DNA of 64,000 nt from an uncultured Gammaproteobacteria bacterium (GCA_964645555.1 CAZYBP010000001.1:759-64758); one strand, 5' to 3'; positions 1 through 64,000 are shown, numbered from the stretch's first letter. Numbers and translations are program-made. The notes: a model not told the origin generated them from the letters alone.

Positions 1-717
1 TTAGTTAAAAAAGCGGTACCAAAAAATAGTCCAGACAGCTTCTACCCCGTCAGCAAAACCGATCTTTTTACCCTCCCCGTAAGTCCTTGGTTGAACTTTA
101 ATTGGGACTTCAAAAACATCATATCCTAATTTTAAGATTTTAATTGTGACTTCCGGCTCAATATTGAATCTATTTGATTTAAGATTAATTTTATCCAAAA
201 CCTCTTTACTGAATAGTTTATAACATGTTTCCATATCTGTCAGGTTTGATCCATACAAGATATTAACCAGCGTAGTTAAAAAACGGTTAGCTAAAAGGTG
301 TAAGGGTAAAACCGTTTTACTTTGACCCCAAAGCTTGAAGGGATAATTAACAAGCCTTGAGCCATATACGACCTTAGTTTTCTTTTGTAGTATTGGGTCC
401 AGTAACTTAACGTAATCTTTTGGATCATATTCCAAATCCGCATCCTGGATAATAATCATATCTCCTGTGATATTTTTTAAAGCGGTTTTCACTGCTGCTC
501 CTTTGCCTTCATTTTTTTCATGCCTTAAAATTTTCAATTTTAAATTTTCAATTTTAAATTCCGATAAAACTTTGGGAGTTTTATCGGTAGATCCGTCATC
601 CACTATAATAATTTCCTTTTTAACTTTTTTAGGAAGCTTGATCAGGGCAACTTTTTCTAAAATAAGTCCGATGGTTTTCTCTTCATTAAAAACAGGAATT
701 ATGATAGATAAAATCAT
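1..717 (-). CDS. Glycosyltransferase family 2 (DPM1/GtrB-like soluble GT-A domain)
   Basis: N-terminal IIIPVFNEE...IIVDDGSTDKT motif and a downstream DAD(L/E) segment typical of GT2. TAA stop at 1-3, ATG at 715-717 overlapping the upstream gene's stop (ATGA). Confidence 0.75.
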   Translation of the reverse strand: MILSIIIPVFNEEKTIGLILEKVALIKLPKKVKKEIIIVDDGSTDKTPKVLSEFKIENLKLKILRHEKNEGKGAAVKTALKNITGDMIIIQDADLEYDPKDYVKLLDPILQKKTKVVYGSRLVNYPFKLWGQSKTVLPLHLLANRFLTTLVNILYGSNLTDMETCYKLFSKEVLDKINLKSNRFNIEPEVTIKILKLGYDVFEVPIKVQPRTYGEGKKIGFADGVEAVWTIFWYRFFN

Positions 718-1406
718 GTTGTCCTTTTTGCAACTACCAGAATTGATGTACCAAAGGGCGGTTTAAAAATATCCTCAAAGGGCAAAATGAAAGGAGCGAC
801 AAAATTAAATATTTTTACTTTCTTTTCATCAACAATTTTTTCCGAGAAGAATTTTGAGGATATCAGCCAACCTAATGCTCCCAAGACATTTAGTATTCTC
901 TCCTTTTCAATTTTAAATCCTGTCTGCTCAAGCAATTTAATTAATTCTTTTTTTTCATATCTTCTGAAATGGCCTATCGATTTGTCAATTGCCCCATATA
1001 GAAACTTATGGGCGGGCACCAGAAGAATCAGGTAGCCTCCTTTTTTTAAAAGAGAGTGCATATTGTTAAGACTTTTTTTATCATCTTTTATATGTTCTAA
1101 AACATTGATGCATAAAATAGTGTCAAATCTTTTTTTAAAAAATAATGATCCGCTCTCAATATCCCCTAAACCAACCTCGGCCCTCTCTCCCAAAAGCCTC
1201 TGTGTCTGACTAATATGTTCTTTATCTATATCAATTGCAAACACTTTGCCAAAGGGAATCAATGCTTGGGTAAAATTACCTATCCCGCAACCTACTTCTA
1301 AAATATCTCCCTTTAGATATTGAACAAATTTTTTTAGGGTCCACTGGTTATACCATACTGCCTGGCTCATTGATTCTAAAGTTTTGGCCCCCAGTTTAGT
1401 GCTCAA
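714..1406 (-). CDS. Class I SAM-dependent methyltransferase
   Basis: Motif I LEVGCGIGNF plus an acidic residue after beta-2 (AIDID). 230 aa. Ends with TGA overlapping the next gene's ATG. Confidence 0.75.
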   Translation of the reverse strand: MSTKLGAKTLESMSQAVWYNQWTLKKFVQYLKGDILEVGCGIGNFTQALIPFGKVFAIDIDKEHISQTQRLLGERAEVGLGDIESGSLFFKKRFDTILCINVLEHIKDDKKSLNNMHSLLKKGGYLILLVPAHKFLYGAIDKSIGHFRRYEKKELIKLLEQTGFKIEKERILNVLGALGWLISSKFFSEKIVDEKKVKIFNFVAPFILPFEDIFKPPFGTSILVVAKRTT

Positions 1407-2215
1407 ATTAATCTCCTTTTCAATTTTCGAAGCGGAGTAAGCAACCGGGCTTTTGCTTTTTCCAATCCTTGCATCCTAAGCCATGGGGAAGGAATAAAAC
1501 TTGGGGTTTTTTGATAAAAAACTTCGGGGAATTTGAATCCGTCTTCTATCTTTTTTCCTATTTCATATTTAAATTTCTCATATTTTCTTTTCAAGGAAGA
1601 TCTTTTCAAATGAGTAACATGCAAAAATGGTGCATTAAGGAAAATTATTTTTTCTCTATCCTGCACAAAACGGTTGTCTTGATCCAAAAAACCTTCTTTT
1701 CCATAAGGAAAATCAACATGAAGACCGGGAATATGTTTACTAAAAGCCTTTAAACTAAGATGTCCTGTTTTCCCTAAAATTTTATATCTTCCTGCTTCCT
1801 GTTGCTGTAAATGATAAATATCTCCCACCGGTACAATCATCGGTACGGCAATTCCTTCAGTATTTCCTTGGTGAATTTTTGAAACTACCTTTTTAATTGA
1901 ATCTTTCCACCAAATTTCATCACCATCTAAAATTAAAATCCAATCACAATCAGACTGTTCAAGCAATTTCTGCCGCATTTTAGTAAATTCGTATCTATCA
2001 ACTGCCCCAACTTCCCTAAAATCCACCTTATCTCCGCAAATTTCCTTTATTTCCCTGATTATATCTACTGTTTTATCTGTTGAACCCGTATCCCAAACTA
2101 AAACCTTATCAACAAAATCCATCACACTCATAATGGAAAACCAAATAAAATTTTCTTCATTGTTTACAATGGTATTTGCCCAAATTTTCATTTTCTTAGT
2201 TTCACTAGCAACCAA
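1403..2215 (-). CDS. GT-A-like glycosyltransferase (GT2-related)
   Basis: VWDTGSTDKT plus LDGDE (DxD-like). Sits in a glycan operon. Confidence 0.55.
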   Translation of the reverse strand: MVASETKKMKIWANTIVNNEENFIWFSIMSVMDFVDKVLVWDTGSTDKTVDIIREIKEICGDKVDFREVGAVDRYEFTKMRQKLLEQSDCDWILILDGDEIWWKDSIKKVVSKIHQGNTEGIAVPMIVPVGDIYHLQQQEAGRYKILGKTGHLSLKAFSKHIPGLHVDFPYGKEGFLDQDNRFVQDREKIIFLNAPFLHVTHLKRSSLKRKYEKFKYEIGKKIEDGFKFPEVFYQKTPSFIPSPWLRMQGLEKAKARLLTPLRKLKRRLI

Positions 2216-3447
2216 ATCAAAGGATAGATAAAGTTAAAAGCCGTACCAACTAGCACAGTAACAGATGCACCTATTATGCCGAAATTTGAAATCATGAAGT
2301 ATCCTACTACTCCTATCACCATTAGATGACCTAAAGCTGCCCAAATAAAAACATCGGGCCTGCTAAAATAAAAAATGATGCTGTGATGTACCGGTATAGA
2401 AAAGAGAAAAACCAGGTTTGCCAGGAATAAAAAAATAAAGGGTATGACTGCCTCAGAGTAGGTGGGACCAAAAAGTATTGGAATAAGATAAGTTGAGACA
2501 GGAATAGTGAGAATCCCCAAAAGACAAAGTCCCAGGACTAAAAACTGGAATTTTTTAAAATAAGTCAACATCTGGGAATTGTTTTGGAAGGAGGCAAATT
2601 TAGGTGAGGAAACAAGGCCTAAGGCTGAAACCAACTGAGGCATAATTTGAACCAGCTGGTTAGCAGCCCCATATATTCCAACTTCCCGGCTGGAAAGCAA
2701 AGCAGCATTCAGATAGGTATCCAATCTGGCCGAAAAAGCGGCAATCAGGCTAAATACTGCAACGGGGATATTATATTTAAAAAGTTCTGCTGACAGGGAA
2801 AATTCCTCCTTAACTTGCAATAACTGCCTGCTGGGAAGAAAAAATAATGCTACAAAGAAACCAAAAAAAGGCAGGAGTATAAAAACAAATAAACTGCTTT
2901 CTATATTAAGTAAGCTTGAAATACCAAGTAGCACTATTAAAACAAGTCTTAAGGCATTGGTGAAAATATTTAACAGGCTCCAAAGAAAATATTTCTGGAA
3001 AGCTTGCAAGGCAGATGTAGCAAACGTAAAAAGTAATGCCCCTCCTGCTCCAAATGCTACCAATCTAAGTGGTAAAATTAGCTCTTCTGTATGGAAAACC
3101 TGGATTGCTAAAAAAGGCGTCAGCAAATAAACTGACAAGAATGTCACTATCCAAGCTACCAGCTTAATTTCCAGGCTCAATTTCAAAAATCTATATGCTT
3201 TTTCCCTGTCTTTTGAAATGTGGGAAGATACAAAACGGATCAATCCGGTATTTGTTCCAATGTCTGCCATGTCAGCAATCAGGACTAAGGTAGTTAAAGA
3301 AACAGTCAGGATGCCAAACTCCGCAGGACCCAAAATCCTGGCCAGCAGGATATAAAACAGCGCACCCAAAACCCCGTTTATAATTGTCCCAATAACTGTA
3401 ATCTGGGATTGTTTCCAGGTGGCTGTAGAAAAAATTTCTTTTAACAT
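2188..3447 (-). CDS. Polysaccharide flippase (Wzx/MOP superfamily, Polysacc_synt-like)
   Basis: 419 aa, about 12 predicted hydrophobic helices. N-terminal G..Y..LAR.LGP..FG pattern typical of Wzx-like O-unit flippases. Confidence 0.7.
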   Translation of the reverse strand: MLKEIFSTATWKQSQITVIGTIINGVLGALFYILLARILGPAEFGILTVSLTTLVLIADMADIGTNTGLIRFVSSHISKDREKAYRFLKLSLEIKLVAWIVTFLSVYLLTPFLAIQVFHTEELILPLRLVAFGAGGALLFTFATSALQAFQKYFLWSLLNIFTNALRLVLIVLLGISSLLNIESSLFVFILLPFFGFFVALFFLPSRQLLQVKEEFSLSAELFKYNIPVAVFSLIAAFSARLDTYLNAALLSSREVGIYGAANQLVQIMPQLVSALGLVSSPKFASFQNNSQMLTYFKKFQFLVLGLCLLGILTIPVSTYLIPILFGPTYSEAVIPFIFLFLANLVFLFSIPVHHSIIFYFSRPDVFIWAALGHLMVIGVVGYFMISNFGIIGASVTVLVGTAFNFIYPLIWLLVKLRK

Positions 3448-3457: not shown

Positions 3458-3688
3458 TCATTCAGAGTTTCTAATATACTCCCAAACTGCCTGCAATATC
3501 CCTATTAACCAACCGATGAAGCTGACTCTCATTAGAGGTTCAGCCAAATTACGAAGAGTTAAAACTGTCAAGACAGCTGCCAGAACAAAAAAACCTAAAG
3601 CTACTTTCATAGAGAAACTGGCCTTTTTTTTCAAAGTCCAGATCACAATTATCCATACCGCCAAAATTGCCCAATAGATTATCTCCAT
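3458..3688 (-). CDS. Small hydrophobic membrane protein (2-3 TM), function unknown
   Basis: 76-aa ORF composed almost entirely of hydrophobic helices. Lies immediately downstream of a family-A membrane gene. Could be a GtrA-like small flippase subunit or spurious. Confidence 0.3.
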   Translation of the reverse strand: MEIIYWAILAVWIIVIWTLKKKASFSMKVALGFFVLAAVLTVLTLRNLAEPLMRVSFIGWLIGILQAVWEYIRNSE

Positions 3689-6606
3689 AATAATTTCCTA
3701 ACAATAATATACACTAGTCCTGCCGCTAGTGACAAAAATGAAACTATCTTACCTGCCTCAAGCACACGTTGAGGAGCAAACTCTAACGTCAGATTAAAAT
3801 CTCCACTTCTCTCTACTAACCAGCCGTTAGCATAAGTATTAGCTAAGAAATGTTTATTAATTCTGGTACCGTCATCTAATGTAGCCTCCCAACTACTGTT
3901 GAATAATTCCGAAAGTACTAAGATAAACGGTTTGTCTGCTGCTTTAATTTGTATTGAATATTTTGTTGGATTATGTTTTATATATGTAATTTTAGGAAGA
4001 GGGGAATCCAATAGAGAATTTTGACTGATTAGTATAGGTAGGGGGTCTATCAAGCGGTTAACGGATAGATTTTTCAGAATAATTTCGGTTGGCATTACAG
4101 AATTTGCCCAAAACATTGCATTAGCTCCTTCGGATCTTTGTGCGTTAAATCCGCCTTTGGCAAATATAAATGAGGTGGAGTTTTTTCCTTTAGTCAGAAG
4201 ATTAAAGTTCGGTGCCTGGAGAACAAGATTATTATTTCTTACCATGTCATTACTCTGATTAAAAATGAATGTGAAGTCCGATCCTGAAGAAATTATGTAG
4301 TTAAATTGTATAAAGTACTTCCCATAAGGATCAAAATTATTGATTTCATAAGAAATTTTTTTATCTTGATTTGTAGAAATAATAAGATCCCTGGGAACAG
4401 AAAGCAGATTTTCAGTTACGGGTCTTTCTATGATAATCTTGTGCTGACCTGGGCTGAAATTAAACAACCCGTATGAAATTTTATTGTTTTGTATCTGGCC
4501 CTTTTGTAAAGCAATTTTATCATCAACAATAACTTTAATATTTGCAGCAATAGATGCTTCATTTGCCTCCAGAATAACATTATCCAAAATAAGCTCATAA
4601 TCAGCATCTTTTTCGGCATTAATTTTATATTCCTTTTTGTGCTCAAAAGATGGTATTTCATCAATAAGAGTTTCCTTTTTTTCTTCCTCAGGATACAAAA
4701 TAGTTACAACGCTCATGCTGTCAATTTCTTTCCGGGTATCGGTTGAAAGTAATACATCATAATGTTCATTGCCCCACAAAACATCTGATATTTTAGATTG
4801 AGGAAAAGTAAATATTGGTTTATTTGCTGCATAAACGGTTCTGTCTGCCCAACTGGTATTTTCCCACAGTTTCAATTTTTCAAATTGAGCAACTTTCTTG
4901 AAACTACCCTCTTCTTCTCTTTCTGCAAGAAGCTTTTCTATAACTTGTGGATCCCTCAACCTTCTTTCCCTGATATCAATATCTGAGCGTGTCAATAAAA
5001 ATTTAACATTTAACAGATTTGCAACTTTAGAAAAATCAGGCTCCCTGACAAACAACTTTTCTAATCCCTCAACTACTTGTGAATAATAAGGGATAGTCGT
5101 ATTAAAAGAGATATTAGGAGTTGAAAAGAGTATCTCGGAAGGCTCTATACCCTGGTAGCCTTTTTCCCATTTATAAGTCATTCCCTCATCACCCAAAGGG
5201 AGACTGATAAACCTAAAATTCTTCCCCTGCCTTTGCAACCAAGTATCAGCCTCCTTATAATAAGATGGCACTTTTACCTGAAAGCCTACTTTGTAATTAT
5301 TATTTGGTGGAGTAACACTGGTAAAAACAAGGCCCGAAAAGAAAGGAAAACCTAAGACGGCCAAAACTAAAAGGAAAAAAACAGAGAAAATTATTAAAAC
5401 GGCTTTTTTACTGTATTCTCCTAATTGAGATACGCCTGCAGCAAAAAGAGGTGCAGAAACTAAAGCGGTTATAAAACCAATTTTTTCAAAAGGGTCTCTT
5501 AAAATTTGCAGAACAGATAATCTGGTAAAAAAGTATTGGAAGACTTCACCAAATGGTTGATTACTACCTTTTGCTATATATAACCCAAAGAAAAATATTA
5601 TAGTCAAATAAAGCACAGATAGCTTTGATCTTAATTGGTAAATTACCCATAAAATTGTTCCGGTAAAACCAAATAGGATTAAACCGGGTAAAAAAGTATT
5701 AAATGCAGCCGACCAAGCCGGACCTTCTCCCTGATAAAAACCTCTATGCATAAATCTTAAAATATCGATTAAATTTCCCAGTTTCCGGCTAAGAATATTT
5801 AGAGTGTAAAGATTGCCTTCGGTAGTTATAAAAAGAGACAGTTCCTTGGCTGTATTTTCAGATTGAACAAACTGAAAAGTGGGGATAATCCACCATGCAT
5901 GCACCAGGATAAAAAAGCTTAAGGTTAATAAAATATATTTGATGGCAAAAAAGGTGAATTCCTTTTTTCTAAAGGCTAAAATGAAAAAAAGCCAGGTGAA
6001 AGCAAGTAATAACCACATAAGAAAGTTAAAAACATACGAAGTAAAGGCATAGGAAAAAATGTAGGTCGCAATACCAAAAATAATACCGGCAATAAAACTT
6101 CGTTTTTGTAACCCCCAAATAAAAAGAAAAAGTAAAATCGGTAAAGCTGCCCAAAAAACCATATAATTATATAAAAACCTGTTCCAGACATTCACCATGG
6201 AAAGAGGGTTAAACCAGTAGAATAAAACTGCCAATAAAACATATTTTTGGGCAAGATTGGGAAATAAAAGTTTTGTTAATCCATACATTCCCACCCCGGC
6301 CGAAATAAATAGAAACCAGAAGGTGAAAGCTTGAAGTATATAGCCTGGTATCCCCAACTTTTGAATTTCCGAAAGCAACCACCAGCTTGGAGCTGATGCA
6401 ACTGTCAGACTTTAGGTACTACCTAACTGAAAATCAGTCCAGGCCCAAGCTGTTTTATCCTTATATCTTTCCAGGTTATGAAACGGAATTATCGCTTCCG
6501 CTGTTCCTAATATATTGCCCTCACGGAACCATATTGAAACTAAAATGCCGGCAAGTAACGCAATTAATATAAAAAAACTTCGTTGCCCAGCAATAAATAA
6601 TTTCAT
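3679..6606 (-). pseudogene. Family-A large polytopic membrane protein (GT-C-like candidate, YfhO/AftD-like architecture) interrupted by one in-frame TAA
   Basis: ORF 6412..6606 (N-terminus ILVSIWFREGNILGTAEAIIPFHNLERY...) and ORF 3679..6378 are in the same frame, separated only by TAA at 6412-6414. The joined product aligns without gaps to the intact paralog 22488..25316 from its N-terminus onward. The ATG at 6604-6606 overlaps the TGA stop of the upstream gene (ATGA). Confidence 0.55.
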
Positions 6607-17214: not shown

Positions 17215-17232
17215 ATAAGGTTGATTATACTT

Positions 17233-41933: not shown

Positions 41934-41950
41934 AATTGATAATTGTGTGA

Positions 41951-42730: not shown

Positions 42731-42734
42731 GTGT

Positions 42735-44525: not shown

Positions 44526-44528
44526 ACT

Positions 44529-47633: not shown

Positions 47634-47637
47634 AGTG

Positions 47638-48615: not shown

Positions 48616-48616
48616 T

Positions 48617-49681: not shown

Positions 49682-50067
49682 ACCAATTTCAATCTGACAA
49701 GATCCCCTTCATATTTGTCTTGCTCCCTCGGCTCTGTGGTAAATGCCAAAAACACACTGTCTTCTAAAAATTCCATAGCGTGCGCGACCATCGGACGTGA
49801 TAAAACCAAATCCCCCGGTTTTAAGATAACCGATTCTCTCTTTGAATTTTTCTTACTCATATCTTTTTCGCTATAGCGGAATTTACCTGATAAACAATAC
49901 ACAAAATGGGCATCTGTTTTATGATAGTGGTTACCACGGGTACTACCTTTTTTGCTGACAATATATAACACAGCCCTGAGGGGATATTTGTCTTGATCTA
50001 TTAACCGGGTAATGTAACCTCGCTCGTCGGTAAATTCAGGTTTATTTTTTATAACTTTAATTGGCAT
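49678..50067 (-). CDS. Cupin sugar isomerase (FdtA/WxcM-like NDP-4-keto-6-deoxyhexose 3,4-ketoisomerase) candidate
   Basis: 129 aa with ERGYI...RGNHYHK...H motifs typical of WxcM-like cupins. Confidence 0.5.
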   Translation of the reverse strand: MPIKVIKNKPEFTDERGYITRLIDQDKYPLRAVLYIVSKKGSTRGNHYHKTDAHFVYCLSGKFRYSEKDMSKKNSKRESVILKPGDLVLSRPMVAHAMEFLEDSVFLAFTTEPREQDKYEGDLVRLKLV

Positions 50068-50138
50068 CTGAAGTGAAGTTAGTATAGCTTTAGCCTAAAT
50101 TGGTGTCAAGAATTACTTTTTTGATATACTCAACTTTC

Positions 50139-56362: not shown

Positions 56363-57473
56363 TAGCGTTTTTATTACTATAAAGTTTTTCTATATGACCT
56401 CTGGAGTTTTGCTGTAATCTTTTGTATAAATTCTCATCTTTATACAATTTAATTATTGCATCTGCAATAGCTTTCGCTTCCACATCAACCAATATTCCCA
56501 CCGTCTCGTCAACAACTTCCTTTATCCCGCCGGTACTGGCTGCGACAACAGGTGTCTTACAGGCCAAAGCTTCCATACTGACTCTGCCTAAAGTTTCTTC
56601 AAAGGAAGGCACCACTACTATATCTGCAGCACTGAAAAAAATTGGTGTTAAAGTATTATCAATTTTTCCCAAAAAATGTAAATTAGGATATTTTTTAGCC
56701 ACACCTTCTATCTCTTCTTTTAACGGACCATCACCAATAATATAAAGTTGAATTTGCCCCGGCAGCAAGGATACAGCTTTCAAAAGAGGCCCTATTCCCT
56801 TCTCTTCTATTAATCTTCCGATGAACAGGACAGAGAATTTATCCTCCCAATTTAGTTTATCTTTAGCAACCCTTTTATCCGTAGGTTTAAAAACATCCAA
56901 ATCTATCCAATAAGCACACTTGCCGATTTTACTCTCGGGAATACCTAACTCCCTTACTTCCTGCTCGGATGCCAATGACACACACAAGACCCTATCTGCA
57001 ATATTAAGCATCTGTTTGGAAAACCAGCCAAAGAAATTCTTTTTGAAATGAAAAACAAATTGCATACTGATAAGTACCCTTTTGCCAAAAAGCTTACTTA
57101 AAACTCCTCCTGCCACAATTCCGCTTATACCTTGAACATGTACAACTTCTATTGAGGGGTATTTAATTAAAGCAATCAGTAGGCCGGCAAAAAGAGGCGG
57201 GGTTAAATAGAAAAATTCCAGCAGAGGATAGTTTAATAATCTGTGAAAGAGGTTTTTTCCAAACCAGGGAATTCTCCAGATAGTCAAATTCTCATCATTC
57301 TCAAGCATTGGCGCCGACACCCTCGTTGAAATAGGCGGCAAAGTAACTACCAACAGTTGATACTTTTTTTTGAGCTCATTTGTTAAATCCGTTAAGTGAG
57401 TTTCCAAACCACCAATGTTTGGCCTAAAACCTATTGAAAGTATTACTGCCTTGGGAGAGAAATTATTTTTCAT
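56328..57473 (-). CDS. Glycosyltransferase family 4 (GT-B)
   Basis: N-terminal GG-containing loop (IGGLETH) and C-terminal GT4 block (…EETLGRVSMEALACKTPVVA…). Confidence 0.7.
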   Translation of the reverse strand: MKNNFSPKAVILSIGFRPNIGGLETHLTDLTNELKKKYQLLVVTLPPISTRVSAPMLENDENLTIWRIPWFGKNLFHRLLNYPLLEFFYLTPPLFAGLLIALIKYPSIEVVHVQGISGIVAGGVLSKLFGKRVLISMQFVFHFKKNFFGWFSKQMLNIADRVLCVSLASEQEVRELGIPESKIGKCAYWIDLDVFKPTDKRVAKDKLNWEDKFSVLFIGRLIEEKGIGPLLKAVSLLPGQIQLYIIGDGPLKEEIEGVAKKYPNLHFLGKIDNTLTPIFFSAADIVVVPSFEETLGRVSMEALACKTPVVAASTGGIKEVVDETVGILVDVEAKAIADAIIKLYKDENLYKRLQQNSRGHIEKLYSNKNASVFVNEYEIKA

Positions 57474-58284
57474 TTGCTAATCTGCCTTTTATATAACCTA
57501 AACCGCCGGCTATTTGCTCTAAAGTTAACATAAAAAACATCCCTATTGCTAGTACCGGATGGGAAAATAAAATCCTAAAGTTACGGTAAAAAACAGGCCT
57601 TAGAAAATAAATAGTCTTAGGACTGAAAACGGAAATATTATTCTTCCCTAAATACCGATGGCTTTTTAGAGCATAATAATATTTCTTACTGATTAGTTTA
57701 CGTATCGAAGGAATTCTCTCATAGTGATAGATCTTAGATTTTATTCTCACGAGCTTAAAACCATTTTTTCTAACATTTTCGGGAAAATCCCAATCCTCCG
57801 GGCCGGTAATTGATTCATCATATCCCTCTACTTTATTAAATGCCTCCCTGGTAAAAAATCTGGCAGCATCAGTTGTAATATCGCCTTCAATGTTATAAAA
57901 GGAGCGCTCAAAGGCTTTTACTTTTTCCCAAAAATTTTCACCTATTGATTGTTCCGGTATAACTATTCCGCCTATGCTTGAATCTTTCTCGCATTCCGCA
58001 ACACATTCTGCTACTACATCTTTTTGTAAAACCATATCTGCATCTAAAATCATCAAATATTTACCACTGGATCTTTTTACACCCATATTTCTCTGTGCAC
58101 TTCTTTCGGGACCAAATGTATACACTTTTATCCCCATTTTTTTAGCAATTTGAAAGGTCCCGTCCGTAGAATTGTTATCTACCAGGATTATCTCCAAATT
58201 CTGATAACTTTGATTTCTGATCGAATCAATGAGTCTTTTGATAACATCCTTCTCGTTTTTAGTCGTGATTATAATGGAAACCAT
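57463..58284 (-). CDS. Glycosyltransferase family 2
   Basis: VSIIITTKNEKDVI...ILVDNNSTDGT followed by MILDADM. Confidence 0.8.
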   Translation of the reverse strand: MVSIIITTKNEKDVIKRLIDSIRNQSYQNLEIILVDNNSTDGTFQIAKKMGIKVYTFGPERSAQRNMGVKRSSGKYLMILDADMVLQKDVVAECVAECEKDSSIGGIVIPEQSIGENFWEKVKAFERSFYNIEGDITTDAARFFTREAFNKVEGYDESITGPEDWDFPENVRKNGFKLVRIKSKIYHYERIPSIRKLISKKYYYALKSHRYLGKNNISVFSPKTIYFLRPVFYRNFRILFSHPVLAIGMFFMLTLEQIAGGLGYIKGRLANEK

Positions 58285-58317: not shown

Positions 58318-58944
58318 ATGTATAATATCGTCATGATTAAAGCTATAATATTTGATTTAGATGGTGTGCTAATTGACGCAACAGAATGGCATTATGAAGC
58401 ATTAAATGATGCACTGAAAATTTTTGGTTATGAATTAGGCCTAGAAGAACACTTAACTACCTATAATGGGTTACCCACAGCCGAAAAGCTCAAGCTACTA
58501 TCGGAGAAAAAAGGGCTTCCTTTGGGTTTACATGAAATTATCAAAGTAATGAAAAGAAAATTAACAGATGAAAGAGTCAGACAACTTTGCAGTCCCAGTC
58601 ACGAAAAACAAATCATGCTCACAAATTTGAAACATAAAGGGTATAAACTTGCCTGTTGTTCCAATGCACAAAAATATTCGGTCATGAATATGTTAGAGTC
58701 TGCAAAGATTGATCATTTTTTTAGTGTTATCATGGGAAATGATGAAGGTTATAAACCTAAACCAGCGCCGGATATATATTTGGCAACATTTAAAGAGCTT
58801 AAAGTTCCTCCAAACGAAGTTATAATTGTTGAGGATGCTTCACACGGCATAGAAGCTGCCAAAAGAAGTGGGGCGAAGGTAATTGCAGTACGTGGTTTCG
58901 AAGATGTAAACTTATCATTGTTTTTGGATTTAAACTTAGTATAG
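58318..58944 (+). CDS. HAD-superfamily hydrolase (beta-phosphoglucomutase/phosphatase subfamily)
   Basis: IIFDLDGVLIDAT motif I (DxDG) and C-terminal EDASHGIEAAKRSG (motif IV region). Confidence 0.7.
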   Translation: MYNIVMIKAIIFDLDGVLIDATEWHYEALNDALKIFGYELGLEEHLTTYNGLPTAEKLKLLSEKKGLPLGLHEIIKVMKRKLTDERVRQLCSPSHEKQIMLTNLKHKGYKLACCSNAQKYSVMNMLESAKIDHFFSVIMGNDEGYKPKPAPDIYLATFKELKVPPNEVIIVEDASHGIEAAKRSGAKVIAVRGFEDVNLSLFLDLNLV

Positions 58945-59703
58945 ATGAAAAACAGCCGTAATTTAAACATTGTTATACCGATGTCTGGAGGTGGCGCCAG
59001 CTTTACTGCTGCCGGTTATACTTTCCCAAAACCCTTAATAGACATTAACGGCAAACCGATGATTCAGTTAATAATTGAAAATTTAACTCCTAAATTTATT
59101 CATCAATTTATATTGATTCCTAAAAAAGAACATTTCGATAAATACTCCCTGCATCAAGTATTTAATAATGTAGCCAAGGGAAATTTTATTACAATTTTGC
59201 AAACTGCACCGACACAGGGAGCAGCGTGCACTGTTTTAAATGCCATCGATTACATCAAGAGTGACACGGAGTTAATCATTGCCAATGCCGACCAAATAAT
59301 TGATGTTGATATCAATAAATTTATTCAGTTTGCCAGAAAATCGAAAGCGGACGGAGTAATCATGACTTTTAATTCTCAACACCCTAAGTGGAGTTATGCC
59401 AGAGTTGATAAAAAAGGGCGGGTCTTAGAGGTAGCGGAAAAAAAGGTTATATCGGATCAGGCAACGGTTGGAATTTATTATTTTAAAAAGGGTTCGGATT
59501 TTGTAACCTCCGCTTTCTCTATGATTGAAAAAAATATCAGGTTTAATAATGATTTTTATGTTTGCCCTACCTTTAATGAAATGATTCTTGCCGGAAAAAA
59601 TATTATCAATTGGGAAATAAAACAATCTCAAATGCATGGCCTGGGTACACCTGAAGATTTAAATAAATATTTGTCTAAGTTAGAACAAAAAACCAAAAGA
59701 TGA
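58945..59703 (+). CDS. Sugar-phosphate nucleotidyltransferase (NTP_transferase fold)
   Basis: VIPMSGGGASF...PKPLIDINGKPMI matches the (I/V)PMAG-G-RF / KPL...GKPMI signature. 252 aa. Confidence 0.6.
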   Translation: MKNSRNLNIVIPMSGGGASFTAAGYTFPKPLIDINGKPMIQLIIENLTPKFIHQFILIPKKEHFDKYSLHQVFNNVAKGNFITILQTAPTQGAACTVLNAIDYIKSDTELIIANADQIIDVDINKFIQFARKSKADGVIMTFNSQHPKWSYARVDKKGRVLEVAEKKVISDQATVGIYYFKKGSDFVTSAFSMIEKNIRFNNDFYVCPTFNEMILAGKNIINWEIKQSQMHGLGTPEDLNKYLSKLEQKTKR

Positions 59704-60470
59704 AAATTATCATTCCGATGGCGGGTAAGGGTTCTAGGTTTTTAGATGCAGCAAACTTAAATCCTGAATATAAAAAGCCAAAACCTTTAATTAAAATACT
59801 GGGTAAACCGATGATCGCCTGGGCAATTGATTCCCTTGCAAAGTTTAAAGTAAAACCCGCCGGTTACATCTTCATTTGCCGTAAGGATCATGAGGATGAA
59901 TTTAAAATCTCTCAATCATTAAAGAATCTATTTGGCAGTCAGATTAAAATAATTTTAATTGATCAAATAACGAGGGGTGCTGCGGAAACTGTCTTGAAGG
60001 CTGAAGAATATATAAATACAGATGAAGATATTTTAATTTCTGACTCAGACCATTATTTTGACGGTAGTTTCCTATATGACAAAATCCGCAGTAAAGATTC
60101 TAAAACGGCGGGCATCATTCCGGTTTTCCAACCCCCTGATCAGGACCCAAAATGGAGTTTTTCTTTAGTTGAGAAAGCTGACGTAATTACAGCAGTAGGA
60201 GAAAAGGATAAAGAGTTAGCTGCCAAGGGAGCACTGGCTAATATTGGTGGTTATTATTTTACTCATGGCAATGTTTTTGTTAAAGAAGTGAAAGAGGCCA
60301 TTTTAAAAAATCATTTAACAGGTGATGAGGGCAAAAAAGAATTTTATGTGGCACCAATTTATCAAAGGCTAATTAATAAAGGAATGAAGATTGTGGCAGC
60401 AATTACCCCCAGGGTTTGGGGTTTAGGTACCCCAAAAGATGTTGAATATTTTGAGAAAAATTTTATCTAA
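59700..60470 (+). CDS. Sugar-phosphate nucleotidyltransferase (paralog of the preceding gene)
   Basis: IIPMAGKGSRF...KPKPLIKILGKPMI. 256 aa. Start overlaps the previous stop (ATGA). Confidence 0.6.
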   Translation: MKIIIPMAGKGSRFLDAANLNPEYKKPKPLIKILGKPMIAWAIDSLAKFKVKPAGYIFICRKDHEDEFKISQSLKNLFGSQIKIILIDQITRGAAETVLKAEEYINTDEDILISDSDHYFDGSFLYDKIRSKDSKTAGIIPVFQPPDQDPKWSFSLVEKADVITAVGEKDKELAAKGALANIGGYYFTHGNVFVKEVKEAILKNHLTGDEGKKEFYVAPIYQRLINKGMKIVAAITPRVWGLGTPKDVEYFEKNFI

Positions 60471-61443
60471 ATCCCTGGTAGCCCTGATAGCAAACTCTTG
60501 CCAATTCCAATACATCATCATGCATAGGACCATTTGTACCTATCGCAACCTGAGTTGATTCATTTACAGAATGTCCATTAACATCTGTAAATTTTCCACC
60601 GGCTTCAATAATTGCCAAACCTCCGGCAGCCAGGTCAAAGAAACCTCCTACTGCATCAGTTAAAGTTAGTCTGGCTGAACCTTTAGCAACCTTTAGCTGC
60701 TGGTCAATATTGCTCCCGCTCATCCTAAAACCTAAATTATTACCAGCTAGATCAACCAAACCCGCCATAAAAGTAAACTTAGAATCTCTGGTTTTTGAAT
60801 TAAACAAAGCATCAATGTAAGCTATACCGCCCACTAAAGTTGGGGCTTTGGAAACCTCTATCTGTCGGCAATCAGTGGTCATAAATAAACCTTCAACTTT
60901 GAGTCCCGAGGGGCTTCCCCAAAGATCTTCTAATTCTTTTTCCCCTGCCAATCTATACAGAAAGGCTCCTTTTCCAGCCACTGCTACAACTAATTCTCTT
61001 TCAAAGGGATGACAAATAACAGCTGCATATGGCCTCTTGCTGCTGTAAACAGCAATGCCAACTGTTGAGTAACGCTGCCCTTCTGCGTAGCTTGATGTTC
61101 CATCCAACGGATCCACATGCCAAGCATTACCTTCACTTGCCGTACCTTTTTCGTCGCCGCTTTCTTCTTCATTAATTCTGTCTTCCGGAAACTGATCGCG
61201 GATCAATCTCTTGATTACAGTACCCGAGTGAGTATCGGCCACCGTTTTAGGAGTGTCTCCATCTTTAGCTTTATACTCAACTTTTAAAACCTCAGGACTG
61301 GCACCATGAATAGCCAATACTTCTCTTGCTCCCTCAATGGCGGCAGCTGCTGCAATAGTAACTCTTGGATCGGAAAGACCTATGGTCTGCAATCTCTCAT
61401 GAGTTTCATTTAGTAAAGATGCACGTTCCGGATTAACTGACAT
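60463..61443 (-). CDS. Inositol-monophosphatase-family phosphatase (IMPase/FBPase fold)
   Basis: WHVDPLDGTSSY, the W-x-(V/I)DP(I/L)DGT metal-binding signature, plus upstream acidic EE residues. Confidence 0.65.
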   Translation of the reverse strand: MSVNPERASLLNETHERLQTIGLSDPRVTIAAAAAIEGAREVLAIHGASPEVLKVEYKAKDGDTPKTVADTHSGTVIKRLIRDQFPEDRINEEESGDEKGTASEGNAWHVDPLDGTSSYAEGQRYSTVGIAVYSSKRPYAAVICHPFERELVVAVAGKGAFLYRLAGEKELEDLWGSPSGLKVEGLFMTTDCRQIEVSKAPTLVGGIAYIDALFNSKTRDSKFTFMAGLVDLAGNNLGFRMSGSNIDQQLKVAKGSARLTLTDAVGGFFDLAAGGLAIIEAGGKFTDVNGHSVNESTQVAIGTNGPMHDDVLELARVCYQGYQGFR

Positions 61444-61540
61444 ACAAAGGGTATGTTAGCATAATATAATACTTGGTACAACTATAAGCTAAACAATTTA
61501 TTGTTGAGTACTATTAAACCTCTATGCTATTATCATTTAA

Positions 61541-62389
61541 GTGAACCAGATAAAAGTTATTTCTCACCGTGGGGGATTCCTACCGGAGGGGCCTATACCT
61601 ACCGTGCAAAATCAATATAAATTGCCGGAGAATACTTTGGAGGCATTTGAAAGAGCTTTCCAAAACGGATGGGGTATTGAGACAGATGTTAGGCTCACAG
61701 GTGATGGAAATTTTATTATCATCCATGACGCAGATATAGTTAGGTTTTCAGGAAATCAGGGTGTAATTGATCAAATGACTGCTTCTCAAATCCAAAAGGT
61801 TGGTTTTAAAACAAATCCCAGTTTTAAAATCCCCGCCTTAGACGAACTCTTTGAACTTACCCAAAAGTATAGTCAAAAAAACCAACTGCCTTTCATTGCC
61901 TTTCAAATTAAACGAGGTAGTAACCCAAAAAGCGGAGTCGAAGTTGGAGAAGCAATCGCAAACGGAATGCAAAAATTTAATTTGCAAACAAGCATTGTCT
62001 TTGATGCAACATTGGAAGAAGCTAAACAATTGCATCGCGAATTTCCCTGGCTTAATTTGTCCGTATCGGTTGGTGAAGAAAATTACAGTCCTACTATTTA
62101 TACACCCTCTCAAGTACTATCAGATGAATTCAGCACCGTTTATACTTCTGTCTGGGCAGATGAATGGAAAAAGCCTTATTCTATATACAAAAAGCGATTA
62201 TTTGAGAACCTACGTAATGTTTACAAGGGCAGGATTGATGTTATCTCACCTGAACTCCATTACAATGAAGATCATCCTACTGCCAGAGATTTAGCCAAAT
62301 TAAAAGCTCTTTGGCAAGAAATTATCAGTTGGGATATTGCAGATGGAATTTGCACTGATTATCCAACAACACTGCAATTGCTTACATAA
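61541..62389 (+). CDS. Glycerophosphodiester phosphodiesterase (GDPD) family protein
   Basis: HRGG...ENTLEAFERAFQNGWGIETDVRLTGDGNFIIIHD, the HR-x-ENT-x-FE-x-D-x-HD pattern of GDPD. Start is GTG in the sequence. Confidence 0.65.
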   Translation: MNQIKVISHRGGFLPEGPIPTVQNQYKLPENTLEAFERAFQNGWGIETDVRLTGDGNFIIIHDADIVRFSGNQGVIDQMTASQIQKVGFKTNPSFKIPALDELFELTQKYSQKNQLPFIAFQIKRGSNPKSGVEVGEAIANGMQKFNLQTSIVFDATLEEAKQLHREFPWLNLSVSVGEENYSPTIYTPSQVLSDEFSTVYTSVWADEWKKPYSIYKKRLFENLRNVYKGRIDVISPELHYNEDHPTARDLAKLKALWQEIISWDIADGICTDYPTTLQLLT

Positions 62390-62413
62390 ATTAGTTATCA
62401 TATAATCCCATTA

Positions 62414-63583
62414 ATGACTGGCTCATTTACTAAAGGTAAGGGACTTACCTTAATCCCTAAAAATATTGATAACCTATTTCGTCTTAGTCCCAAAATTAAG
62501 GAAGAAAGTTTGGATTATGTCCATCTTAAAAAGTTTGTAGAAAAAAGAAAATTTGCACCCATTCTTTTAAAAGAATGCTTCTTTGTAATAAAGCCCAAAG
62601 GGTATTTAACTATTGATTATAAACCTTCAAAACAGATTAATTTTATATCTTTAGAAGAATTACTTTGGTGGTTATTTAGAGGAAACTACACCATTATCTT
62701 ACACAAAGAAGGTGAAATTAACCGTTTGATCATTCAAAAAAAGAAAACTGTTTTTGCAAAAGAAGACAGTATTGATAACTGGTCTTTTGGCATTATCACA
62801 AACGGAGACAGGGATGACTGGATGGAAATGATCATAGAATCAATTAAAAAGCAAAAGATCCCTCATTATGAAATTATCATTTGCGGCAAATACAGAAAAC
62901 GCCCGGAAAAAAATATAACTTACATTCCCTTTAGCGAAAGAGCGGACAGGGGATGGATTACCAAAAAAAAGAATTTAATAGTAGAAAAAGCAAAATATGA
63001 AAATCTTTGTATGATTCATGACCGCCTTGTTTTAAATTCAAACTGGTATCAGGGCATGAAAAAATACGGAAATGCTTTTGAGCTGCTCGGTTGCGTTCAA
63101 AGACAAAGTAACGGAGAACAGGCGGGAGACTGGCTGACTTGGGGAGGTCCATTATATAGCTTTTATAAAATAGCCGGGATGGAATATTCAGACTGGGATT
63201 ATAATACCTATCTGTCAGGGCAGTTAGTAATTATTAAAAAAAGAATATATGAAAAGGTTTTATGGGATGAGACAACTTTTTGGATACCTAAAACCAAACG
63301 CGACCTGGTGGCAGACGGAGATTTTAGTTTTAGGGCCAGAGATTTAGGACATTTAATCAGGTTTAACCCCTACTCTTCCTGCTTGGCGCTTTCCTGGCGC
63401 CACGGACATGTGCCGCTGCGTTATGACCCCACCAAAGGGATTATTCCCGATATGTTAATTCGAAGAACTATCCGGCTTTTCGGAAGAAGGTTTCATAATA
63501 TTCAACCAATCAATTGGCTTGCTCTTAAAATATTAGCTGTTTTAGTAAAAACTGGTGTCTATCAAAAAATAGTCTCCAAATAA
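62414..63583 (+). CDS. Hypothetical protein (possible divergent GT-A-like enzyme)
   Basis: 389-aa ORF with coding-like composition. The internal WSFGIITNGDRDDW...YEIIICG segment weakly resembles a GT-A nucleotide-binding core. No confident family assignment. Confidence 0.4.
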   Translation: MTGSFTKGKGLTLIPKNIDNLFRLSPKIKEESLDYVHLKKFVEKRKFAPILLKECFFVIKPKGYLTIDYKPSKQINFISLEELLWWLFRGNYTIILHKEGEINRLIIQKKKTVFAKEDSIDNWSFGIITNGDRDDWMEMIIESIKKQKIPHYEIIICGKYRKRPEKNITYIPFSERADRGWITKKKNLIVEKAKYENLCMIHDRLVLNSNWYQGMKKYGNAFELLGCVQRQSNGEQAGDWLTWGGPLYSFYKIAGMEYSDWDYNTYLSGQLVIIKKRIYEKVLWDETTFWIPKTKRDLVADGDFSFRARDLGHLIRFNPYSSCLALSWRHGHVPLRYDPTKGIIPDMLIRRTIRLFGRRFHNIQPINWLALKILAVLVKTGVYQKIVSK

Positions 63584-63595
63584 GACCAATATGTC

Positions 63596-64000
63596 ATTTC
63601 TAATTCCAGCTGCCATTATTTTTTTGATTAGCCTCTTTACTTTTTATCCGAGTTTTTCCTTGGGGTTGTTTGGGGATGACTGGCTGGAACTTTGGATGTA
63701 TATGCATTATTTCGGACCGCAAGCAACTCCTGGCATAACCAATCCTTTTAGTTATTTTCTAAGTGGGTATGGCCCTTATGGTACTACTATGGCCTTAATT
63801 TATAAGTTCTTTGGACAAAATCACAGTGTTTATTATCTTTTCTCATACATATTCAGACTGTCTGCCGCTTTTGCCATCTGGCCATTGGTGAACTATTTAA
63901 CCGGCAGTAAATTGGCTGCCTTCTATGGATCATTATTTTTGTCTATCACTTTTATTGGATTGCAGACTACCGATTGGACATTTAATTTAACATCATACCT
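63596..64000 (+). CDS. Family-B polytopic membrane protein (GT-C-fold candidate), 5' partial at window end
   Basis: LGLFGDDWLELWMYMHYFGP matches the LFGDDW motif of 17233.., 20787.. and 9468... Truncated by the window edge. Confidence 0.55.

What the first reader, a model, noticed from the sequence alone, without database searches (positions are those of the whole stretch)
1..64000. The whole window is one glycan-decoration megalocus with eleven GT-C-like polytopic membrane proteins
About 50 genes, essentially all glycan-related. There are at least 13 soluble/peripheral GTs, a Wzx flippase, a GtrB-like lipid-P-sugar synthase, nucleotide-sugar tailoring enzymes, six methyltransferases, a carbamoyltransferase and an amidotransferase. 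Eleven large multi-TM proteins fall into three paralog families (A x5, B x4, C x2). That density of putative lipid-linked-sugar transferases per 64 kb is extraordinary. It suggests a combinatorial system for building and varying a heavily modified surface glycan (S-layer/pilin glycosylation, a teichoic-like polymer or a capsule). None of the membrane families can be tied to a characterised enzyme from sequence alone.
Basis: partly seen in the sequence, partly recalled or inferred. Interest (0 to 1): 0.75.

Follow-up and report, generated by a model that had tools for sequence, protein, structure and literature searches.

The report
GT-C-rich surface-glycan locus in Daviesbacteria
This 64-kb stretch of a tiny-genome groundwater bacterium (Candidatus Daviesbacteria) is almost entirely a sugar-coat factory that carries eleven large membrane enzymes of the kind that add sugars outside the cell, two families of which are in no curated protein-family library.

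Summary
The window carries 52 genes, and about 46 have glycan-related domains.

The locus also holds one GtrB/ArnC-type and four DPM1-like GT2 enzymes, a Wzx-type flippase and many nucleotide-sugar tailoring enzymes.

The source is a Candidatus Daviesbacteria (CPR) population. Related genomes carry the same parts in different orders.

[quoted passage not shown] Lipid-phosphate sugars are made inside, flipped, and added outside by many GT-Cs to a heavily modified envelope glycan.

This is a new variant of a known kind, not a new mechanism. The acceptor, the sugars and the order of steps are inferred.

Two in-frame stop codons in AftD-like genes are private to this window's sequence.

The parts
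1..3447 (-). Tail of a minus-strand operon. It holds a Wzx/MOP flippase (2188-3447), a GT2 (1403-2215), a SAM methyltransferase (714-1406) and a DPM1-like GT2 (1-717).
   Evidence: Pfam. The 1-717 gene is a paralogue of 44529-45242 (40% identity). Its homologues in other phyla sit next to PMT_2 or YfhO GT-C genes.
3679..6606 (-). AftD-like GT-C, 975 codons. The ATG at 6606 overlaps the stop of the upstream gene (ATGA). An in-frame TAA lies at 6412-6414 in this window only.
   Evidence: 36% identity to the 22488-25316 gene. PF11847 hit is weak, 20 bits. Upstream reading frame. The NCBI contig has TCA (Ser) at this codon and an intact 975-aa gene.
6603..9272 (-). Divergent AftD-like GT-C, 889 aa, about 11 TM helices plus a C-terminal TM anchor.
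   Evidence: No Pfam hit. hhalign against the AftD-like alignment A4 gives probability 97.4%, E 1.4e-11, over residues 22-443. The C-terminal roughly 110 aa resemble those of the 3679-6378 gene.
9468..10967 (+). Family B GT-C, 499 aa. It is a PMT_2-related protein that is conserved across Microgenomates.
   Evidence: More than 315 homologues at about 50% identity in Daviesbacteria and Woesebacteria, some carrying PF13231. D29 and D30 are invariant after TM1. hhalign to the 17221/20787 family gives 98.2%, E 3.4e-14.
10964..17214 (-). Module of GT4 (16006-17214), GT2 (15000-16019), methyltransferase (14374-15003) and an AftD-like GT-C of 1140 aa with a DUF5667 insert (10964-14386).
   Evidence: Pfam: PF11847 at 51.6 bits, E 5e-14. 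The same four-gene module occurs in related locus L089.
17221..19038 (+). Family B GT-C, 605 aa, with an FGDDW motif after TM1.
19010..20710 (-). NodU/CmcH-type O-carbamoyltransferase.
   Evidence: PF02543 and PF16861. NodU-like by NCBIfam.
20787..22541 (+). Family B GT-C, 584 aa, with an FGDDW motif.
   Evidence: 30% identity to the 17221-19038 gene. It is a member of alignment A2.
22488..25316 (-). AftD-like GT-C, 942 aa, with a C-terminal TM anchor.
   Evidence: PF11847 at 37.1 bits, E 1.2e-9.
25363..27808 (+). Three methyltransferases: two SAM methyltransferases and one TylF-type O-methyltransferase.
   Evidence: Pfam.
27828..29930 (-). Short AftD-like GT-C, 700 codons, with no C-terminal anchor. 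An in-frame TGA lies at 28806-28808 in this window only.
   Evidence: PF11847 E 5.3e-11 on the C-terminal half. The two halves are in the same frame. NCBI and Logan assemblies have GGA (Gly) at this codon and an intact 700-aa gene.
29931..34344 (-). UDP-ManNAcA module: WecB 2-epimerase (33253-34344), GT4 (32048-33214), SDR (31126-32055) and a UDP-ManNAc-dehydrogenase-like enzyme (29931-31178).
   Evidence: Pfam. NCBIfam: TIGR00236 at 370 bits and TIGR03026 at 376 bits.
34347..36716 (+). Family C GT-C, 789 aa. NCBI calls it as 775 aa.
36574..43703 (.). Tailoring block. It holds a GMC-type FAD oxidoreductase and an SDR on the + strand (to 39161). On the - strand it holds an AsnB-type amidotransferase (39152-41014), a GT2 (41076-41933), an RmlD-like SDR (41951-42730) and an Fcl-like SDR (42735-43703).
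   Evidence: Pfam. NCBIfam.
43821..46380 (+). Three tandem DPM1-like GT2 paralogues. They are candidate polyprenyl-phosphate sugar synthases.
   Evidence: Paralogy. For the 44529-45242 gene, the best solved relatives are ArnC, P. furiosus Dol-P-Man synthase (residues 8-210) and GtrB.
46377..51215 (.). Branched deoxysugar cassette: sugar C-methyltransferase, GFO oxidoreductase, a 4,6-dehydratase-like SDR and an FdtA-like isomerase (46377-50067, - strand). A DAO-type FAD oxidoreductase follows (50100-51215, + strand).
   Evidence: Pfam. FdtA. The cassette is conserved in L087.
51212..52998 (-). GtrB/ArnC-type polyprenyl-phosphate glycosyltransferase with a C-terminal TM hairpin (51997-52998), plus a GT2 (51212-52000).
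   Evidence: Full-length match to GtrB 5EKP, E 2.2e-23, and to ArnC, E 6e-15. TM prediction.
53137..55452 (+). Family C GT-C, 771 aa.
   Evidence: 44% identity to the 34347-36716 gene. It is a member of alignment A1.
55463..58284 (-). GT2, GT4 and a methyltransferase.
   Evidence: Pfam. The same trio lies next to family C in L097.
58318..63583 (.). Peripheral genes: a HAD phosphatase, two sugar-1-P nucleotidyltransferase-like genes, an IMPase-family gene, a GDPD and an unknown 389-aa protein.
   Evidence: Pfam. NCBIfam.
63591..64000 (+). Start of a fourth family B GT-C, at least 136 aa, with an FGDDW motif. It runs off the end of the window.
   Evidence: 51% identity to the 20787-22541 gene. 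The A2 HMM gives E 1.4e-53.

Best explanation
The window is part of a larger locus of a Candidatus Daviesbacteria (CPR/Patescibacteria) genome. The locus builds a complex, heavily tailored cell-envelope glycan by a two-compartment route.

Cytoplasmic side:
- Nucleotide sugars are made and modified. Candidates are ManNAcA, an amidated uronic acid, 6-deoxy sugars and a C-methyl-branched deoxysugar.
- GT2 and GT4 enzymes assemble a lipid-linked oligosaccharide.
- One GtrB/ArnC-type GT2 and four DPM1-like GT2 enzymes charge polyprenyl phosphate with single sugars.

Membrane and outside:
- A Wzx/MOP-type flippase moves lipid-linked intermediates outward. Other flippases may be encoded elsewhere.
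- Eleven GT-C-fold enzymes of three superfamilies each transfer a particular sugar from a polyprenyl-phosphate donor to a particular position of the growing glycan. The long extracytoplasmic domains of the AftD-like enzymes probably hold the acceptor.
- Methyl, carbamoyl and amide groups add further decoration.

What is shown: the domain families, the predicted GT-C folds, the conserved acidic motifs, and the co-location and recurrence of the parts.

What is inferred: the donors, the acceptor (polysaccharide versus protein), the order of steps, and the idea that all genes serve one product.
For: 1. GT-C identity.
- Three AftD-like genes pass the PF11847 gathering score. The fifth links to them by hhalign at 97.4%.

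2. Catalytic-type motifs.
- DD is invariant directly after TM1 in family B.
- An E or D follows TM1 in all AftD-like copies.
- D134 is invariant in family C.

3. Donor synthases.
- The 51997-52998 gene aligns full-length to GtrB and ArnC.
- For the DPM1-like GT2 tested (44529-45242), the best solved relatives are ArnC, Dol-P-Man synthase and GtrB; the other three are its paralogues.
- Homologues of the 1-717 gene in 80 genomes of many phyla are enriched for an adjacent large polytopic protein: 1.6 per 10 kb within 2 kb, against 0.2-0.8 farther away.
- Of 10 such neighbours, 4 are PMT_2 and 2 are YfhO.

4. A Wzx-type flippase is present. Wzx- and MATE-type flippases are accepted components of such systems (PMC8035078; PMC11127046).

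5. The same families co-occur in four related loci in different orders. Family B is fused to a GT2 domain in two Patescibacteria proteins.
Against: - No biochemical data exist for any family here.
- No initiating phosphoglycosyltransferase, Wzy polymerase, ligase, LCP transferase, ABC exporter or GtrA-type flippase is encoded in the window. The backbone pathway and the acceptor are therefore unknown.
Their link to mycobacterial AftD rests on modest Pfam scores only, with no direct match to the AftD PDB sequence.
- Five DPM1/GtrB-like synthases for eleven GT-Cs means the pairing is not one-to-one.
- The genes could serve two or more separate glycans.
- The topology placing family C's D134 outside the membrane is inferred from the positive-inside rule only.
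Confidence: 0.62

Rival explanations
1. The GT-C enzymes are mainly protein glycosyltransferases, either PMT-like O-glycosylation or OST-like en-bloc transfer. They would decorate S-layer proteins, pilins or other surface proteins rather than elaborate a polysaccharide.
For: - Homologues of the 9468-10967 gene hit PMT_2.
- A Wzx flippase together with GT2/GT4 enzymes would fit a lipid-linked oligosaccharide destined for proteins.
Against: - No WWDYG motif in any of the ten complete GT-C proteins (the eleventh, partial ORF was not checked), and no STT3 or PMT Pfam hit.
- Five copies are AftD-like with very large extracytoplasmic domains, as in polysaccharide-building arabinosyltransferases.
- This rival is not exclusive of the main explanation.
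Confidence: 0.25
2. The window is not one pathway. It is several adjacent, independent glycan loci (for example a ManNAcA-containing polymer, a deoxysugar-containing polymer, and side-chain glycosylation modules) that have accumulated in one variable genomic region.
For: - About 20 strand switches and short operon-like modules.
- Modules recur separately in relatives. The GT4-methyltransferase-GT2-AftD module is in L089. The FdtA/C-methyltransferase cassette with family C and family B is in L087. The GT2-GT4-methyltransferase trio with family C is in L097.
- There are several distinct nucleotide-sugar routes.
Against: - Only one flippase and no second set of initiation or export genes are present in the window.
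- Genes are packed with almost no intergenic space and no unrelated genes over 58 kb.
- All related loci mix the three GT-C families.
Confidence: 0.35
3. The locus is an ordinary Wzx/Wzy-type O-antigen or capsule cluster, and the membrane proteins are polymerases, ligases or transporters rather than GT-C transferases.
For: Wzx, many GT2/GT4 genes and sugar-tailoring genes are typical of such clusters.
Against: - No Wzy, WaaL, chain-length regulator, phosphoglycosyltransferase or export genes were found.
- The organism is a CPR bacterium, which from my own knowledge has no outer membrane or LPS.
Confidence: 0.04

Closest known systems
Mycobacterial/corynebacterial arabinogalactan and lipoarabinomannan assembly (AftA-D, EmbA-C, Mpt and PimE GT-C enzymes using decaprenyl-phosphate sugars)
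   Same: - Many different GT-C enzymes, clustered in part, each add one linkage type outside the membrane from polyprenyl-monophosphate donors.
- The AftD-type enzymes are very large, with extracytoplasmic acceptor-binding domains.
- Five genes here belong to or link to Pfam GT-C_AftD.
   Different: - The window has no DPA pathway: no UbiA-type phosphoribosyltransferase and no DprE1/E2 homologues.
- There is no detectable direct similarity to the AftD PDB sequence.
- The proteins are 700-1140 aa against about 1400 aa for AftD, and mostly have a single C-terminal anchor helix by hydropathy.
- The host is a CPR bacterium, not an actinobacterium.
- Two further GT-C families are present that mycobacteria are not known to have.
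Three-component Gtr-type systems and Gram-positive multi-component transmembrane glycosylation systems (GtrB/CsbB plus GtrA/GtcA or Wzx/MATE plus a GT-C such as YfhO, PMT_2 or GT136)
   Same: - A GtrB/ArnC-type synthase, DPM1-like GT-A enzymes, a Wzx-type flippase and GT-C transferases are co-located.
- Soluble GT-A variants and Wzx- or MATE-type flippases are accepted variations of these systems (PMC8035078; PMC11127046).
   Different: - Known systems have one GT-C per module and 1-3 modules per genome. Here there are eleven GT-Cs in at least 64 kb.
- No GtrA-type flippase is present.
- The GT-C families are not YfhO or GT136, and only marginally PMT_2.
Eukaryotic ER-lumenal ALG3/9/12, ALG6/8/10 and PMT pathway
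   Same: A series of GT-C enzymes extends a flipped lipid-linked oligosaccharide using Dol-P-sugars made by DPM1-type synthases. ALG12 and Pmt4/Pmt2 are among the best structural matches.
   Different: Sequence identity is only 9-12%. There is no OST signature. The setting is bacterial, with different sugars.
Wzx/Wzy-dependent O-antigen and capsule loci
   Same: A mosaic, strain-variable locus of GT2/GT4 enzymes, sugar-tailoring enzymes and a Wzx flippase.
   Different: No Wzy, chain-length regulator, ligase or phosphoglycosyltransferase is present in the window. GT-C enzymes dominate instead.

Membership tests
GT-C glycosyltransferase superfamily | Polytopic membrane protein (about 7-13 or more TM helices) with an extracytoplasmic domain | tested here: met
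   Hydropathy predicts 8-14 hydrophobic segments in all ten complete genes. AF2 secondary structure shows 12-16 long helices plus a C-terminal alpha/beta domain.
GT-C glycosyltransferase superfamily | GT-C fold by structure comparison | tested here: met
   [not shown]
GT-C glycosyltransferase superfamily | Conserved acidic residue or motif in the first extracytoplasmic loop | tested here: met
   - D38 (with D39) is invariant in family B, and D29/D30 in the 9468 family.
- An E or D lies 8-15 residues after TM1 in all five AftD-like copies.
- Family C has invariant D134 in 'ADSxMQW'. Its extracytoplasmic location is inferred from the positive-inside rule, not shown.
GT-C glycosyltransferase superfamily | Uses polyprenyl-phosphate-linked sugar donors | not testable with these tools
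   Only contextual support is available: co-located GtrB/ArnC-like and DPM1-like synthases.
AftD family (Pfam PF11847 GT-C_AftD) | Match to PF11847 above the gathering score (26 bits) | tested here: met
   - 10964-14386 scores 51.6 bits; 22488-25316 scores 37.1; the C-terminal half of 27828-29930 scores 41.6.
- 3679-6378 scores only 20 bits, below the cutoff.
- 6603-9272 has no hit and links by hhalign only.
AftD arabinofuranosyltransferase proper (mycobacterial) | 16 TM helices, three CBMs, ACP binding, and a decaprenyl-phospho-arabinose donor with its DPA pathway genes | tested here: not met
   - No sequence match to the AftD PDB chain, even at E of 10 or less.
- No CBM Pfam domains.
- No UbiA-type or DprE1/E2-type genes in the window.
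- Defining features taken from 10.1101/2019.12.22.885152.
- The genes here are remote relatives, not orthologues.
PMT_2 / ArnT-like (Pfam PF13231) | Match to PF13231 | tested here: inconclusive
   None of the window proteins hits at E of 0.01 or less. About 15 of the listed homologues of the 9468-10967 gene carry PF13231, as does one family B homologue in L099, weakly.
Oligosaccharyltransferase (STT3/AglB/PglB) | WWDYG motif in the C-terminal domain and a match to PF02516 | tested here: not met
   [not shown]
YfhO (Pfam PF09586) | Match to PF09586 | tested here: not met
   No hit.
Gtr-type three-component glycosylation system | GtrB-type polyprenyl-phosphate glycosyltransferase | tested here: met
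   The 51997-52998 gene aligns over residues 17-321 to GtrB 5EKP (E 2.2e-23) and to ArnC, and has C-terminal TM segments.
Gtr-type three-component glycosylation system | GtrA-type small flippase | tested here: not met
   No such ORF exists. Intergenic space is under 420 nt everywhere. The only flippase candidate is the Wzx/MOP protein at 2188-3447.
Wzx/Wzy-dependent O-antigen or capsule cluster | Wzx plus a Wzy polymerase, an initiating phosphoglycosyltransferase and a chain-length regulator or ligase | tested here: not met
   Wzx is present. No Wzy_C, Bac_transf, Glycos_transf_4 or Wzz hit occurs in any ORF. These genes could lie outside the window.

The most novel reading that the evidence does not exclude
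A clade of CPR bacteria (Daviesbacteria and related Microgenomates) devotes several percent of a roughly 1-Mb genome to an arabinogalactan-style envelope heteropolysaccharide that is assembled outside the membrane. The machinery is a dozen or more GT-C enzymes, including two GT-C families (B and C) absent from Pfam, NCBIfam and the solved structures. Module shuffling between strains, and possibly on/off variation of individual GT-C genes, would diversify the surface glycan that mediates attachment to hosts or escape from phages.
Probability: 0.3. Interest if true: 0.75.

Novelty: new variant of a known kind. Interest (0 to 1): 0.55.

Why it matters
CPR/Patescibacteria are ultra-small episymbionts. 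They lack most biosynthetic pathways, and their surface chemistry is essentially unknown.

This genome spends at least 64 kb on one glycan region. The region is dominated by extracytoplasmic GT-C transferases, and the pattern recurs in relatives. That points to a complex surface glycan as a central and probably variable part of their biology, for example in host attachment, phage defence or envelope integrity.

The work also yields two confidently modelled GT-C families (B and C) with no curated model. These are concrete targets for CAZy-type classification and biochemistry.

The mechanism itself is established: polyprenyl-phosphate sugar synthase, then flippase, then GT-C. The advance is therefore in scale, lineage and new families, not in principle.

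Tried and rejected
1. Source genome. The one genome-contig scan, using the 1-717 GT2, was meant to recover the source contig and its left flank. The source genome is not in that collection. The scan returned 80 homologues from many phyla, which I reused for a neighbourhood test.

2. Failed exact look-ups. Look-ups of several window proteins found nothing, so the flanks beyond the window could not be read.

3. Library not available. The afdb50 fold library was not installed.

4. PDB sequence searches. Profiles of families B, C and AftD-like, and the single proteins, found nothing significant.

5. Family relationships. hhalign found no significant relationship between family C and family B. I therefore keep them as separate families.

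6. Genetic code. I considered whether the in-frame TGA at a conserved Gly position means genetic code 25 (UGA = Gly, as in some CPR lineages). I rejected this for three reasons: 17 of 50 ORFs end in TGA, the window is not fragmented under code 11, and other assemblies have GGA at that codon.

7. Pseudogenes or phase variation. I considered whether the two stop codons show pseudogenisation or phase variation. I downgraded this because both are private to this window's sequence. A Logan contig is identical over 3.5 kb except at that one base.

8. SNP comparison. The comparison beyond window position 59673 was misaligned by an N-run and indels in the NCBI contig. I ignored it.

9. Literature. Searches for GT-C or glycan loci in CPR, Patescibacteria, Daviesbacteria or Microgenomates found nothing relevant.

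10. RNA genes. No tRNA or Rfam family is present.

Full report
**What is in the window**

Fifty ORFs of at least 150 aa tile the 64 kb with almost no intergenic space. GC content is 32-40%. There are no tRNA genes and no Rfam families. Two further genes complete the list: a 129-aa FdtA-like gene at 49678-50067 and a partial ORF starting at 63591.

Pfam scans of every ORF and NCBIfam scans give the following:
- Ten GT2 and three GT4 glycosyltransferases.
- One Wzx/MOP flippase (2188-3447).
- Seven methyltransferases, including a TylF-type O-methyltransferase and a sugar C-methyltransferase.
- A NodU/CmcH-type carbamoyltransferase.
- An AsnB-type amidotransferase.
- WecB and a UDP-ManNAc-dehydrogenase-like enzyme.
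- Six SDR epimerase/dehydratase/reductases, a GFO oxidoreductase, an FdtA-like isomerase and two FAD oxidoreductases.
- At the right end: a HAD phosphatase, two nucleotidyltransferases, an IMPase-family protein, a GDPD and one protein with no family.

**The eleven membrane proteins**

*Group A, five AftD-like genes.*
- Three match Pfam PF11847 (GT-C_AftD) above the 26-bit gathering score: 10964-14386 (51.6 bits), 22488-25316 (37.1 bits) and the C-terminal half of 27828-29930 (41.6 bits).
- 3679-6606 is 36% identical to 22488-25316.
- 6603-9272 has no Pfam hit. It aligns to the group over its whole membrane domain (hhalign 97.4%, E 1.4e-11).
- All five have an E or D shortly after TM1.
- Four have a 300-700-residue extracytoplasmic region followed by a single C-terminal hydrophobic anchor.

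*Group B, four genes.*
- 17221-19038 and 20787-22541 are 30% identical.
- The partial ORF 63591-64000 is 51% identical to 20787-22541, and the A2 HMM gives E 1.4e-53.
- 9468-10967 links to them by hhalign (98.2%, E 3.4e-14).
- None hits Pfam or NCBIfam at E of 0.01 or less.
- All have an invariant DD directly after TM1, as FGDDW or SQDDF.
- Some homologues of 9468-10967 carry PF13231 PMT_2.

*Group C, two genes.*
- 34347-36716 and 53137-55452 are 44% identical.
- They have no Pfam, NCBIfam or PDB sequence match.
- They show no significant relation to group B (hhalign probability 11.6%, E 0.0026).

**Fold**

AlphaFold2 with family alignments gave confident models.
- Group B (17221-19038): pLDDT 90.8, pTM 0.91.
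- Group C (34347-36716): pLDDT 82.1, pTM 0.86.

- Group C: ALG12 14.9, Pmt2 14.7, AftA 14.4, AftB, STT3B 13.3, AglB 12.2, ArnT 11.6, PglB 11.2, AftD 10.5.

**Donor-making enzymes**
- The 51997-52998 gene aligns full-length to GtrB (5EKP, E 2.2e-23) and to ArnC, and has C-terminal membrane segments.
- Four paralogous GT2 genes share a roughly 235-residue catalytic domain: 1-717, 43821-44525, 44529-45242 and the C-terminal part of 45196-46380. For the one tested (44529-45242), the best solved relatives are ArnC, the Pyrococcus Dol-P-Man synthase (aligned over its whole catalytic domain) and GtrB.

I made an independent test of functional coupling. In 80 genomes from many phyla, homologues of the 1-717 gene have a large polytopic neighbour (at least 400 aa and 8 or more TM segments). 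The rate is 1.6 per 10 kb within 2 kb of the gene, against 0.2-0.8 per 10 kb farther away. Of ten such neighbours scanned, four are PMT_2, two are YfhO, one is Wzx, one carries only TPR repeats and two have no hit.

This supports reading these GT2 genes as polyprenyl-phosphate sugar synthases that feed GT-C enzymes.

**Source and relatives**

Exact-protein look-ups place the window on three contigs of NCBI MAG GCA_016187055.1, Candidatus Daviesbacteria, a CPR/Patescibacteria lineage. The contigs are JACPKN010000087.1, JACPKN010000096.1 and JACPKN010000001.1. The window itself comes from a more contiguous assembly of the same population.

Family sizes and distribution:
- Group C is small. A word-indexed search of 5.8 billion proteins found 25 hits. 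An exhaustive profile search of 1.84 billion representatives found 317 clusters with E of 1e-3 or less.
- Ten distant group C members still have no Pfam domain.
- Named group C members are Daviesbacteria and Woesebacteria. The most distant cluster sits on 3.2-3.6-Mb contigs, so it lies outside the CPR.
- Group B (17221 type) has 34 hits, all Patescibacteria where named. Two of them are fused to a GT2 domain.
- The 9468 type is conserved at about 50% identity across Microgenomates.

Four related loci carry the same families in different order and number:
- L087 has two tandem group C genes, two DPM1-like GT2 genes, the FdtA/C-methyltransferase/GFO/SDR cassette and one group B gene.
- L089 has a group C gene, three AftD-like genes including the GT4-methyltransferase-GT2-AftD module, and a carbamoyltransferase.
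- L097 has a group C gene, two group B genes and the GT2-GT4-methyltransferase trio.
- L099, from another Daviesbacteria, has one group C gene and four to five group B genes within 22 kb.

GT-C-rich mosaic loci are therefore a feature of this clade, not a peculiarity of this window.

**How it most likely works**

The parts match the established logic of multi-component transmembrane glycosylation (PMC8035078; PMC11127046). They also match the mycobacterial arabinan machinery.
1. Cytoplasmic enzymes make tailored nucleotide sugars.
2. GT2/GT4 enzymes build a lipid-linked oligosaccharide.
3. GtrB/DPM1-type enzymes make polyprenyl-phosphate monosaccharides.
4. A flippase exports these intermediates.
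5. GT-C enzymes add single sugars outside the membrane.

What differs is scale. Eleven GT-Cs of three superfamilies sit in at least 64 kb, against one per module and 1-3 modules per genome in the characterised Gram-positive systems.

The closest analogue in density is the mycobacterial arabinogalactan cluster. From my own knowledge, aftA-embC-embA-embB...aftB places five GT-Cs in about 25 kb.

Steps that are shown: family membership, predicted fold, conserved acidic motifs, co-location and recurrence.

Steps that are inferred: the identity of donors and acceptor, the order of action, and whether one or several products are made.

The window encodes no initiating phosphoglycosyltransferase, Wzy, ligase, LCP enzyme, ABC exporter or GtrA flippase. 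The locus runs past the right end of the window and probably past the left end as well.

**Stop codons**

Two AftD-like genes carry a single in-frame stop in the window.
- TAA at 6412-6414. The real start is the ATG at 6606, which overlaps the upstream stop as ATGA.
- TGA at 28806-28808, at a position where the paralogues have Gly.

The NCBI contigs have TCA (Ser) and GGA (Gly) at these codons, and call intact proteins of 975 and 700 aa. A Logan assembly of SRR12113431 is identical to the window over 25607-29089 except at position 28808.

Between positions 3259 and 59673 the window differs from the NCBI MAG at 33 positions. About 19 are synonymous, about 12 are nonsynonymous and 2 are the nonsense changes.

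The stops may be rare variants or sequence errors. They are not good evidence for pseudogenes or phase variation. Genetic code 25 is excluded.

**Novelty and verdict**

No paper in the searchable library describes GT-C-rich glycan loci in CPR bacteria.

The mechanism class is known, so I rate this a new variant of a known kind. It is an unusually GT-C-heavy, modular glycan locus in a reduced-genome lineage. It includes two GT-C families without curated models.

Interest is moderate (0.55). A glycobiologist or CPR specialist would find the scale and the new families notable. No new principle is demonstrated, and the product is unknown.

Noticed in passing
window 6412-6414 and 28806-28808: Single in-frame stop codons (TAA, TGA) interrupt two AftD-like GT-C genes. 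Both are private to this window. The NCBI MAG has TCA (Ser) and GGA (Gly), and a Logan contig is identical over 3.5 kb except at 28808. They may be rare alleles or sequence errors.
   Followed up: yes
window 21388-21434 and 22316-22352: Two tight clusters of 7 and 9 SNP positions against the NCBI MAG lie inside the family B GT-C gene 20787-22541. Most are synonymous. They look like short recombination or strain-mixing tracts.
   Followed up: partly
window 62496-62751: The 5' part of the unknown 389-aa gene (62414-63583) differs at 17-47 positions in Logan contigs from two other samples, and the NCBI contig ends at 62965. This is a strain-variable spot. The protein has no Pfam or NCBIfam family.
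   Followed up: partly
window 63591-64000: A fourth family B GT-C (FGDDW motif) starts here and runs off the window, so the locus continues to the right.
   Followed up: yes
window 6603-6606: An ATGA start/stop overlap joins the two AftD-like genes 6603-9272 and 3679-6606. This suggests translational coupling.
   Followed up: no
P0056 and P0059 (homologues of window 17221-19038): In two Patescibacteria proteins of about 895 aa (one named Woesebacteria), a GT2 domain (PF00535) and a region similar to family B lie in one polypeptide. This is a natural fusion of the presumed donor synthase and the transferase.
   Followed up: no
[not shown]
   Followed up: partly
window 36574-39161: A GMC-type FAD oxidoreductase and an SDR lie directly downstream of a family C GT-C. 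This pair could oxidise and then reduce a sugar, acting as an epimerase analogous in logic to DprE1/DprE2 but not homologous to them. This is speculative.
   Followed up: no
window 10964-14386 (residues 669-757) and L087 5856-6353: DUF5667 occurs as an insert in the 1140-aa AftD-like protein and as a free-standing 165-aa gene in a related locus.
   Followed up: no
L089/L090 about 2976-3311: An IS200-type Y1 transposase fragment sits inside the related glycan locus. This is consistent with rearrangement of these regions.
   Followed up: no
P0316 cluster (distant family C relatives): The most distant family C representatives (922 aa, E about 5e-15) lie on 3.2-3.6-Mb contigs. The family therefore has remote relatives outside the small-genome CPR; their taxon is unknown.
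   Followed up: no
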